From Eledone cirrhosa (taxonomy: Eukaryota), in the NCBI GenBank assembly GCA_964016885.1, contig OZ024754.1, positions 13,020,001 to 13,084,000 on the forward strand: a stretch of DNA of 64,000 nucleotides. Direction: 5' to 3'. Below, in pieces: positions 13,781 through 14,245 of the stretch; position 1 is the first letter of the stretch; every line of letters begins with the position of its first letter. A model generated the notes under the pieces. That model did not search any database. It was given only the letters and a program-made list of their open reading frames with translations, and was not told the origin of the DNA. Both the position numbers and the translations under genes were made by a program.

Positions 13781-14245
13781 TATACGATATTAAACAAATG
13801 GAAACTATATTTATAAAACCATATTTATTTCATTATACATATTTCAGGGATACCATATTAAAAATATGGCATGCCTTCGTCAGATAAAATACAATATATA
13901 AACAGTTTTATAAATAATTTTGACGTACCATAAATATGAGCGACCATTAAGGTAGGAAGCTACCAAACCAGCTTCCTACCTTAATGGTCGCTCATATTTA
14001 TGGTACGTCAAAATTATTTATAAAACTGTTTATATATTGTATTTTATCTGACGAAGGCATGCCATATTTTTAATATGGTATCCCTGAAATATGTATAATG
14101 AAATAAATATGGTTTTATAAATATAGTTTCCATTTGTTTAATATCGTATATCGTATATCTACTCCAAAAACTTGTCGAGTGCTTTATATCAGTTATAAAA
14201 TATTTACTTCTTGCAACCCAACAATTTTAAATAAAACTTTTGCAT
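13781..14245 (+). mobile_element. Fold-back mini-PLE, family B, with HHR (14041-14104)
   Basis: ~181-bp inverted arms 13781-13961/13970-14150 around an 8-nt loop, plus 95-bp tail; attttat-CTGACGA-stem II-GAAA-T-ATGT-A-TA^-atgaaat; (TA)n both sides. Confidence 0.88.

What the first reader, a model, noticed from the sequence alone, without database searches (positions are those of the whole stretch)
13781..14245. Stereotyped 'hairpin + one-sided tail' architecture with near-zero spacer
Seen: ~181-bp near-perfect inverted arms with an 8-nt loop and a 95-bp tail on one side only. The same design recurs at 29241, 42969, 44125, 44801, 47559 and in family D, with fold-back points that differ between copies of one family (29241 vs 47559). 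They look like MITEs, but the asymmetry, variable centre and HHR argue for PLE-type insertion. Inference: two oppositely primed cDNAs in the self-complementary (TA)n target, or cDNA fold-back.
Basis: partly seen in the sequence, partly recalled or inferred. Interest (0 to 1): 0.7.

Follow-up and report, generated by a model that had tools for sequence, protein, structure and literature searches.

The report
Head-to-head stumps of Penelope retroelements
This DNA hairpin with a one-sided tail is real and is likely the stump of a known jumping gene (a Penelope-like retroelement of the Hydra group), likely made by copying the same short RNA end twice, once into each side of a cut in a TA repeat, so such stumps could show how these little-understood elements insert.

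Summary
Observation confirmed: arms 13781-13961 and 13970-14150 are 181/181 identical, with an 8-nt loop, a tail to 14243 and TA tracts on both sides. Each arm holds a hammerhead-like motif (16 descriptor hits in the window; shuffles average 0.025). It is not a MITE. A coding Penelope-like element (PLE) with Hydra-clade protein motifs at 2030-7159 has the same layout: inverted truncated copy, 96-nt tail on one end only. Inverted pLTR plus one-sided tail is published PLE anatomy. The focal tail carries a small hairpin, CTCC..GAGYRC, found in the leader of 46 of 58 related reverse-transcriptase loci (0 in both controls); copy ends fall 2-14 nt before it. Junctions favour two separately primed cDNAs over fold-back: the loop lies on the untailed arm in 4 of 5 referenced hairpins, and two insertions join non-overlapping arms. 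The near-zero spacer (11 of 16 pairs) is explained by family-typical arm lengths, not by copy-specific coupling (p=0.50). The focal junction was not seen in reads, and no coding partner of this family was found. This scan already reported the same reading and the paired hairpin elsewhere in this genome and in others.

The parts
13641..13784 (.). (TA)n target tract, left flank
13781..13961 (-). Untailed arm: inverted 5'-truncated pLTR copy; last non-TA base at 13785
13834..13883 (-). Hammerhead-like core to predicted cleavage site, mirror copy
13962..13969 (+). 8-nt loop ACCAAACC; likely family sense sequence of the tailed arm
   Evidence: read depth 235 in this bin versus 321 in the next in run X14, inference
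13970..14150 (+). Tailed arm: 5'-truncated pLTR copy; pLTR end at 14146
   Evidence: 6477 reads of X14 turn into (AT)n at 14151
14040..14105 (+). Type I minimal hammerhead-like motif: stem I, CUGACGA at 14048, long stem II, GAAA, near-palindromic stem III, predicted cleavage after 14097
   Evidence: z -2.7; 93.8% of 161 cells paired; 5 stem II pairs change on both sides
14147..14243 (+). One-sided tail (about 97 nt, including a 7-nt tandem duplication at its start)
14161..14182 (+). Conserved tail hairpin ACTCC..GAGTGC, 10 nt behind the pLTR end; candidate start signal for reverse transcription
14244..14286 (.). (TA)n target tract, right flank
29241..29655 (+). Same family, hairpin plus tail; loop on the untailed arm; both arms share a 14-15 nt deletion in the hammerhead
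47560..48027 (-). Same family, hairpin plus tail on the left, spacer 2
43451..43725 (+). Same family (second subfamily), single arm with tail
31622..31798 (+). Same family (second subfamily), single untailed arm
45414..45679 (-). Same family (second subfamily), hairpin with an internally deleted right arm, no tail seen
44125..44557 (-). Related family, hairpin plus tail with the tail hairpin
30379..30515 (.). Same family as 44125: inverted untailed arm joined to a tail-only arm, no shared sequence, 2-nt microhomology
44801..45268 (+). Related family, hairpin plus 97-nt tail with the tail hairpin
49165..49368 (+). Family D example: 62-nt arms, 78-nt tail with a variant of the tail hairpin; siblings at 18620, 30580, 48267
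43762..44090 (-). Further family: tail on the left, 89-nt arms, 67-nt spacer, tail hairpin variant
42969..43360 (+). Hairpin plus 42-nt tail, variant hammerhead core CCGAAGA, no tail hairpin; likely another PLE clade
28117..28617 (-). Hairpin plus tail whose arm matches the 3' end (36628-36890) of a GIY-YIG-coding fragment at 35886-36392; spacer 76 on the untailed arm
2030..7159 (+). Coding Hydra-type PLE, the in-window positive control: inverted truncated copy 2722 to 2030 with 96-nt tail; 5' pLTR 2752-3016; tail sequence 3017-3112; RT frame 3170-4768; GIY-YIG frame 5175-5846 (separated by frame breaks); 3' pLTR ending untailed at 7159; hammerheads at 2224(-), 2918, 7061; tail hairpins at 3024 and 3123

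Best explanation
The feature is two identical hammerhead-bearing arms joined head to head inside a TA tract, with a tail on one arm only, and it is likely the shortest insertion form of a Hydra-clade Penelope-like retroelement, likely made from two separately primed cDNAs. Shown: the anatomy, the TA flanks, the two alternative 3' ends, the conserved hairpin a few bases behind those ends, and junctions with 0-2 nt of microhomology or short inserts. Inferred: the GIY-YIG endonuclease cuts both strands of (TA)n; the reverse transcriptase starts inside the RNA just before one of two conserved hairpins, at the pLTR end on one strand and at the tail end on the other; both cDNAs stop early, usually near a family-typical limit about 170-190 nt from the pLTR end (most simply the RNA 5' end); host repair joins the two cDNA ends.
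For: Coding PLE with the same layout and a 96-nt one-sided tail at 2030-7159, with RWK, DKT, CxCx5C, CxxC and CxH motifs that define Hydra (PMC8557442 section 11). Tail hairpin in 46 of 58 leaders of related RT loci, 0 of 58 on the reverse strand and 0 of 58 inside the ORF; its outer pair covaries, G-C 88, A-T 12, T-A 4, C-G 2 of 127 motifs. Of 102 end-versus-continuation pairs, 27 have the motif within 260 nt and 25 of these at 2-14 nt. In the coding element one hairpin follows the pLTR end (5 nt) and one follows the tail end (8 nt). Loop on the untailed arm in 29241, 28176, 48267 and 18624, on the tailed arm in 30580. Non-overlapping arms at 30381 and L087 7260-7360. Same design in unrelated animal DNA, L081 6026-6301. 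15 of 16 two-armed insertions have TA runs on both sides, background 0.21 per side. In vitro, a Poseidon PLE cleaves and extends both strands and starts at two internal sites that bound the tail (PMC11167929).
Against: No coding partner of the focal family was found, so its link to Hydra rests on the tail hairpin, hammerhead and target; direct tail similarity to the coding element is weak (p 0.04 for the focal tail, 0.004-0.76 over 11 tails). Both arms of one locus share all differences from sister loci (0-1 substitutions within, 4-26 between), which fold-back or later arm-to-arm conversion also predict. The loop lies on the tailed arm in 30580, in L081 and likely in the focal copy, as fold-back allows. 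The L081 centre lies at least 64 nt inside a longer copy of its family, so centres are not always the 5' limit. The focal junction is not among the 15 joints shown. TSDs cannot be read inside (TA)n. Twin priming was not tested experimentally.
Confidence: 0.7

Rival explanations
1. Same PLE origin, but one cDNA folds back on itself and copies its own strand to give the second arm.
For: Arms of one locus are identical or nearly so, including a shared deletion in 29241. Short palindromes sit at several centres (AGCT beside the focal loop, AGTTGACT at 47559, CATATG at 44125). Loop on the tailed arm in 30580, L081 and likely the focal copy.
Against: A folded-back first strand must be the tailed arm and must own the loop; 4 of 5 referenced hairpins in the window show the opposite. 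It cannot make 30381 or L087 7260-7360, whose arms share no sequence. It does not explain why the second arm stops exactly at the pLTR end, just before a conserved hairpin.
Confidence: 0.12
2. The focal family is a short non-autonomous Hydra derivative (retrozyme- or SINE-like unit of about 280 nt) whose fixed length, not truncation of a long RNA, sets the arm length. This concerns the template and is compatible with two-ended priming.
For: All family A arms in the window start about 168-192 nt from the pLTR end, single arms included. Read depth falls steeply towards 13962. No ORF-linked copy in 64 kb. HHR-bearing non-autonomous PLE derivatives are described (10.64898/2026.07.22.740005).
Against: No tandem units were seen here, whereas retrozymes are defined by them. 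A. vaga pLTRs of full-length elements are 181-218 bp with inverted copies abutting them (PMC3846280), so the same length arises in coding elements. The depth fall may reflect subfamily divergence.
Confidence: 0.25
3. The hairpins arose after insertion, by recombination or template switching between copies at the DNA level, with later arm-to-arm correction.
For: The focal tail differs from nearly all reads at two places (14210, 14214) while the arms show 0 differences, which could mean homogenisation.
Against: It does not predict one tailed and one untailed end, TA tracts on both sides, or non-overlapping joins. Family D arms differ by up to 8 of 62, so arms are not generally homogenised. The two tail differences may be subfamily variants.
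Confidence: 0.07
4. MITE or fold-back DNA transposon with terminal inverted repeats, moved by a DNA transposase.
For: Short, non-coding, inverted arms, many copies, TA-rich target.
Against: The tail lies outside the inverted arms, so the two ends are not inverted repeats; centres vary within a family; single arms and non-palindromic joins exist; hammerheads covary; no transposase family among the 30 window ORFs scanned, although a transposase could lie elsewhere.
Confidence: 0.03
5. Sequencing or assembly chimera (fold-back reads).
For: Arms are 100% identical, and the focal junction itself was not observed in reads.
Against: The design repeats in several unrelated families with family-specific ends, arms of other copies carry mismatches, it occurs in an independent assembly (L081), and raw Illumina reads of run X14 show 13 opposite-strand joints in this family (1-4 read starts each, orientation not given).
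Confidence: 0.03

Closest known systems
Hydra clade of C-terminal EN+ Penelope-like elements (Craig et al. 2021, PMC8557442; includes Hydra-1_Obim, Hydra-2_Amil, Penelope-13_HM)
   Same: (TA)n target, canonical hammerhead near the 3' end, 5'-truncated inverted copy (noted for Penelope-13_HM), one-sided tail; the published Hydra-2_Amil consensus ends in a tail with the same GCTCT..TTGAGCAC hairpin.
   Different: Focal copy has no ORF; tail is about 86-97 nt rather than the 30-40 bp given for PLEs; the paired hairpin is not mentioned in the passages or supplement parts I read.
Adineta vaga Pen2a_Av and related Penelope elements (Arkhipova et al. 2013, PMC3846280)
   Same: Inverted pLTR (181 bp) abutting a direct pLTR (218 bp) with 15-bp overlap, optional 31-bp tail on one inverted pLTR, microhomology at 5' junctions.
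   Different: There the pair sits at the 5' end of a coding element with readable TSDs and is rare; here it is a free-standing, abundant unit inside (TA)n. Penelope/Poseidon clade, not Hydra.
Poseidon_Ac internal initiation of reverse transcription (Frangieh et al. 2024, PMC11167929)
   Same: Both target strands cleaved and extended; two internal start sites that bound the tail; AT-rich target; predicted dimer.
   Different: Start sites lie in an AC-rich stem-loop 111-118 nt into the ORF; no paired hairpin, and the formation of inverted copies was not reconstituted in the parts I read.
Minimal hammerheads of metazoan PLEs (Cervera and de la Pena 2014, PMC4209133)
   Same: Type I motif with long stem II, unpaired base before it, palindromic stem III; dual motifs 100-700 bp apart on opposite strands already noted; here the cores are 165 bp apart.
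   Different: Those pairs were not dissected into arms, loop and tail. Cleavage was not tested here.
L1 twin priming
   Same: Two primers from the two sides of a target break copy an RNA and give an inversion.
   Different: In L1 the two pieces are different parts of one RNA; here both copy the same end and give a palindrome.

Membership tests
EN+ Penelope-like elements (insertion structure) | Inverted 5'-truncated copy adjacent at the 5' end | tested here: met
   same in the coding element
EN+ Penelope-like elements (insertion structure) | Tail at one end only | tested here: met
   length 86-97 nt instead of 30-40
EN+ Penelope-like elements (insertion structure) | Hammerhead motif in the pLTR | tested here: met
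   descriptor and covariation; no Rfam hit; activity untested
EN+ Penelope-like elements (insertion structure) | Target-site duplication | tested here: inconclusive
   both flanks are (TA)n
EN+ Penelope-like elements (insertion structure) | RT plus GIY-YIG ORF in a full-length member of this family | tested here: inconclusive
   none linked to the focal family in the window; no genome held; exact 31-nt motif absent from metagenome contigs
Hydra clade | RWK, DKT, CxCx5C linker, CxxC and CxH, no CCHH | tested here: met
   met by the coding element at 2030-7159 (absence of CCHH judged by eye); among 120 hits RWK 90, DK[TS] 117, CxCx5C in 90 of 97 long ones. Applies to the focal copy only through the shared tail hairpin
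Hydra clade | Insertion into (TA)n | tested here: met
Hydra clade | Placement in an RT phylogeny with named clades | not tested
   no tree built
Naiad clade | N-terminal GIY-YIG, no canonical hammerhead | tested here: not met
   endonuclease follows the RT in the coding element; hammerheads present
MITE / TIR DNA transposon | Inverted repeats at both termini, fixed ends | tested here: not met
   tail outside the arms, variable centres
MITE / TIR DNA transposon | Matching DNA transposase | tested here: inconclusive
   none in 30 window ORFs scanned; rest of the genome not available
Animal non-LTR retrozymes | Head-to-tail tandem units each with a type I hammerhead | tested here: not met
   no tandem units of this family in the window

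The most novel reading that the evidence does not exclude
Hydra-clade reverse transcriptase reads one RNA molecule twice, from two start sites each marked by a conserved CTCC..GAGYRC hairpin, into the two sides of a cut in (TA)n; both cDNAs run off the same RNA 5' end, so each hairpin centre records where the template RNA began and each tail length records the spacing of the two start signals.
Probability: 0.35. Interest if true: 0.7.

Novelty: new variant of a known kind. Interest (0 to 1): 0.42.

Why it matters
How PLEs form inverted repeats, tails and microsatellite bias is named as an open task in PMC8557442. These ORF-less stumps are dense here (16 two-armed insertions tallied in 64 kb), so junction statistics can test two-ended priming against fold-back without an in vitro system, and the paired hairpin gives a concrete RNA signal to mutate in one. 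Practically, repeat pipelines may label such stumps as MITEs (inference). Read-through transcripts would form perfect duplexes of about 180 bp, possible substrates for Dicer or ADAR (speculation, not tested). The architecture itself is known, which caps the interest.

Tried and rejected
No whole genome is held, so no genome-wide junction map or empty-site comparison was possible. Rfam found no hammerhead. The exact 31-nt family motif gave 0 matches in metagenome contigs. Pfam did not recognise the Hydra RT frame (0 families; 1 of 6 homologs hit RVT_1); it was identified by YRDD and by 1372 homologs. My first label, Nematis (recalled), was dropped after reading the Hydra definition. Copy-specific coupling of arm lengths was rejected: 11 of 16 pairs within 25 nt beats an all-family permutation (mean 5.1, p 0.0006) but not a within-family one (mean 10.5, p 0.50). 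Those lengths were compiled by hand, and five inverted pairs of unclear family (14633, 19471, 23834, 29714, 37048) were left out. Whole tails do not fold better than shuffles (focal z 0.06; none of 8 tail folds reached z -2). One read joint ends at 14098, the base after the predicted hammerhead cut, but one of 14 joints could do so by chance; not used. No A-to-G polarity in 14 hairpins. Run X12 laid 0 reads (no test); no RNA holder listed. One search's first motif-distance scan could only see ends within 15 nt and was replaced. Literature searches found no paper on twin priming in PLEs or on the paired hairpin; subscription papers such as Arkhipova 2006 and Evgen'ev and Arkhipova 2005 were not seen, and only parts 1, 2 and 52 of 59 of the Craig supplement were read, plus one word search.

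Full report
Observation. The sequence at 13781-14245 is as described: two 181-nt arms with no mismatch, an 8-nt loop and a tail on the right only, between (AT)n tracts. Four letters of each arm end belong equally to the tract, so the element proper is 13785-14243. The window is animal repeat-rich DNA; the best named RT homologs are from Argonauta hians, which hints at a cephalopod, but the source was not established and no genome is held.

Hammerhead. Each focal arm holds stem I, CUGACGA, a long stem II, GAAA, a near-palindromic stem III and a UA cleavage site (14048-14097 and its mirror). The descriptor gives 16 hits in the window against a mean of 0.025 in 40 shuffles. Across 9 family arms 93.8% of 161 cells pair and 5 stem II pairs change on both sides (the rows are related and the structure was drawn from the first row, so this is support, not a probability). 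Rfam finds none. Such minimal motifs, and pairs of them 100-700 bp apart on opposite strands, are published for metazoan PLEs (PMC4209133, Results and Discussion read).

Positive control in the window. A coding element at 2030-7159 has an RT frame (YRDD; 1372 homologs) and a downstream GIY-YIG frame, broken by frame shifts. Its left end is an inverted truncated copy with a 96-nt tail; its right end stops at the pLTR end without a tail; all three pLTR copies carry a hammerhead. Its protein has RWK, DKT, CxCx5C, CxxC and CxH, the features given for the Hydra clade, which inserts in (TA)n (PMC8557442 section 11; supplement tables). I first labelled it Nematis from recall and changed after earlier scan notes pointed to Hydra. 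An inverted 5'-truncated copy and a one-sided tail are standard PLE anatomy (PMC8557442 passages; PMC3846280 parts 1-3 of 5; PMC8969392 passages).

Link of the focal family to Hydra. No coding copy of the focal family was found. The link is a small hairpin, CTCC-N4-35-GAGYRC, at 14162 and in the tails of 29241, 43462, 44125 and 44801. It lies in the leader of 46 of 58 related RT loci with enough upstream DNA, in 0 of 58 reverse strands and 0 of 58 ORF-internal controls. Its outer pair covaries: G-C 88, A-T 12, T-A 4, C-G 2, other 21 of 127 motifs, and 10 of the 12 A-T cases are in this window. It is often paired 43-116 nt apart (44 spacings in 89 loci), and the published Hydra-2_Amil consensus ends with it (by eye). 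Of 102 places where a repeat ends in TA in one copy and continues in another, most of them microsatellite or SINE noise, 27 have the motif within 260 nt and 25 of those at 2-14 nt. In the coding element one hairpin follows the pLTR end and one follows the tail end, so the tail is the stretch between two such points. I saw the motif before consulting earlier notes; the reading that ends fall just before each of a pair came from note e1-8673755 and was then tested here. Plain alignment of whole tails to the coding element is only weakly significant.

Two cDNAs or fold-back. A first strand that folds back must be the tailed arm and must contain the loop, because a copied-back strand cannot gain a tail. 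Where a longer family copy serves as reference, the loop is on the untailed arm in 29241, 28176, 48267 and 18624 and on the tailed arm in 30580; the joints have 1 nt of microhomology or inserts of 1-6 nt. At 30381 an inverted untailed arm joins a tail-only arm with no shared sequence and 2 nt of microhomology; L087 7260-7360 shows the same, and L081 6026-6301 is a complete hairpin plus tail in other animal DNA (both from one assembly). Against this, L081 and likely the focal copy have the loop on the tailed arm, and both arms of a locus share all differences from sister loci (0-1 substitutions within, 4-26 between). That points to one template molecule or one source gene and does not separate the models. 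Poseidon_Ac in vitro extends both strands and starts at two sites bounding the tail (PMC11167929 parts 1-2 of 4), which supplies the chemistry for two-ended priming.

Why the spacer is small. 11 of 16 two-armed insertions have arms within 25 nt of each other. This exceeds random pairing across families (p 0.0006) but not within families (p 0.50; hand-compiled lengths, five unclear pairs left out). Family A arms, single ones included, start about 168-192 nt from the pLTR end, and three other families peak at 168-192 nt, while family D stops at about 38-64 nt. A family-typical 5' limit is therefore enough. Run-off at the RNA 5' end is my preferred cause, since PLE promoters lie in the pLTR and A. 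vaga pLTRs are 181-218 bp; it is untested, and the L081 centre lies at least 64 nt inside a longer copy.

Reads. Runs of one coded organism hold up to 0.74 of the sampled words. On the right arm and tail, 4338 contigs of X1 and 34037 reads of X14 were laid; X4 gave 15 and X12 none. 6477 X14 reads turn into (AT)n at 14151 while others continue into the tail, so both ends exist across the family. Of 15 joints shown (7 more not shown), 14 change strand, 13 of them in raw reads, and 12 of the 14 are asymmetric; orientation is not given and each has 1-4 read starts. The focal junction is not among them, so this copy's own centre is unconfirmed in reads.

MITE test. The ends are not inverted repeats, centres vary, single arms and non-palindromic joins exist, and none of 30 window ORFs scanned matches a transposase. 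Rejected.

Verdict. A real feature and a minimal form of a known PLE insertion pattern, most likely Hydra clade for the focal family; 42969 and 28176 lack the tail hairpin and show that other clades do the same. What my searches did not find in print (open-access library only) is the paired start hairpin, the long tail it explains, and junction evidence for two-ended priming. Earlier unchecked notes of this scan reached the same reading in this genome and in others. Also seen: 10.64898/2026.07.22.740005 part 1 of 5 and passages of PMC13282606, which lists Penelope-like and MITE families in an octopus annotation without such anatomy in the passages shown.

Noticed in passing
window 14210 and 14214: The focal tail differs from nearly all laid reads and contigs at these two places while its arms show no difference from each other; either subfamily variants or arm homogenisation.
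   Followed up: partly
window 29241-29569: Both arms share a 14-15 nt deletion that removes the hammerhead cleavage site and the 3' side of stem I; this deletion is not among the best-supported indels in reads.
   Followed up: partly
window 23834-26629: Inverted 430-nt arms with hammerheads at both ends (23913 minus, 26546 plus), a Hydra-like GIY-YIG remnant at 24254-24481 and a variant tail hairpin after 26629: another Hydra insertion with a long spacer.
   Followed up: partly
window 43762-44090: The 67-nt spacer appears to hold the 5' half of a hammerhead with a variant core (CUGAAAGA) and a long stem II, which would put the loop on the untailed arm; judged by eye, and the relaxed scan did not call it.
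   Followed up: partly
window 37048-38213, 29714-30188, 14633-14847, 19471-19691: Further inverted-repeat insertions beside TA tracts with no hammerhead hit and no tail hairpin; families unassigned.
   Followed up: no
window 15851-16250, 20384-21222, 31811-32005, 33601-33707, 59199-59297, 63418-63818: An abundant short repeat of about 200 nt, SINE-like by recall, with tandem and inverted rearrangements around 20384-21222.
   Followed up: no
window 9574-11837 and 53469-55413: Two broken non-LTR retrotransposon RT frames (Pfam RVT_1).
   Followed up: partly
window 61144-61722 and 28795-29022 (EN match): Further Hydra-like GIY-YIG remnants (tblastn).
   Followed up: no
L078-L089: Twelve loci in records titled as bacterial or symbiont genomes encode PLE reverse transcriptases; L087 closely resembles the coral Hydra-2_Amil consensus by eye, so these are likely animal host DNA in prokaryote bins.
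   Followed up: partly
L084 3845-3895, L052, L015, L036: In several related loci a TA run lies directly before a leader hairpin, upstream of the ORF; unexplained (insertion into the element's own junction or assembly effect).
   Followed up: no
joints at 13994 and 14098: Five of 14 opposite-strand joints have one arm ending at 13994, a possible preferred end; one ends at 14098, the base after the predicted hammerhead cut.
   Followed up: no
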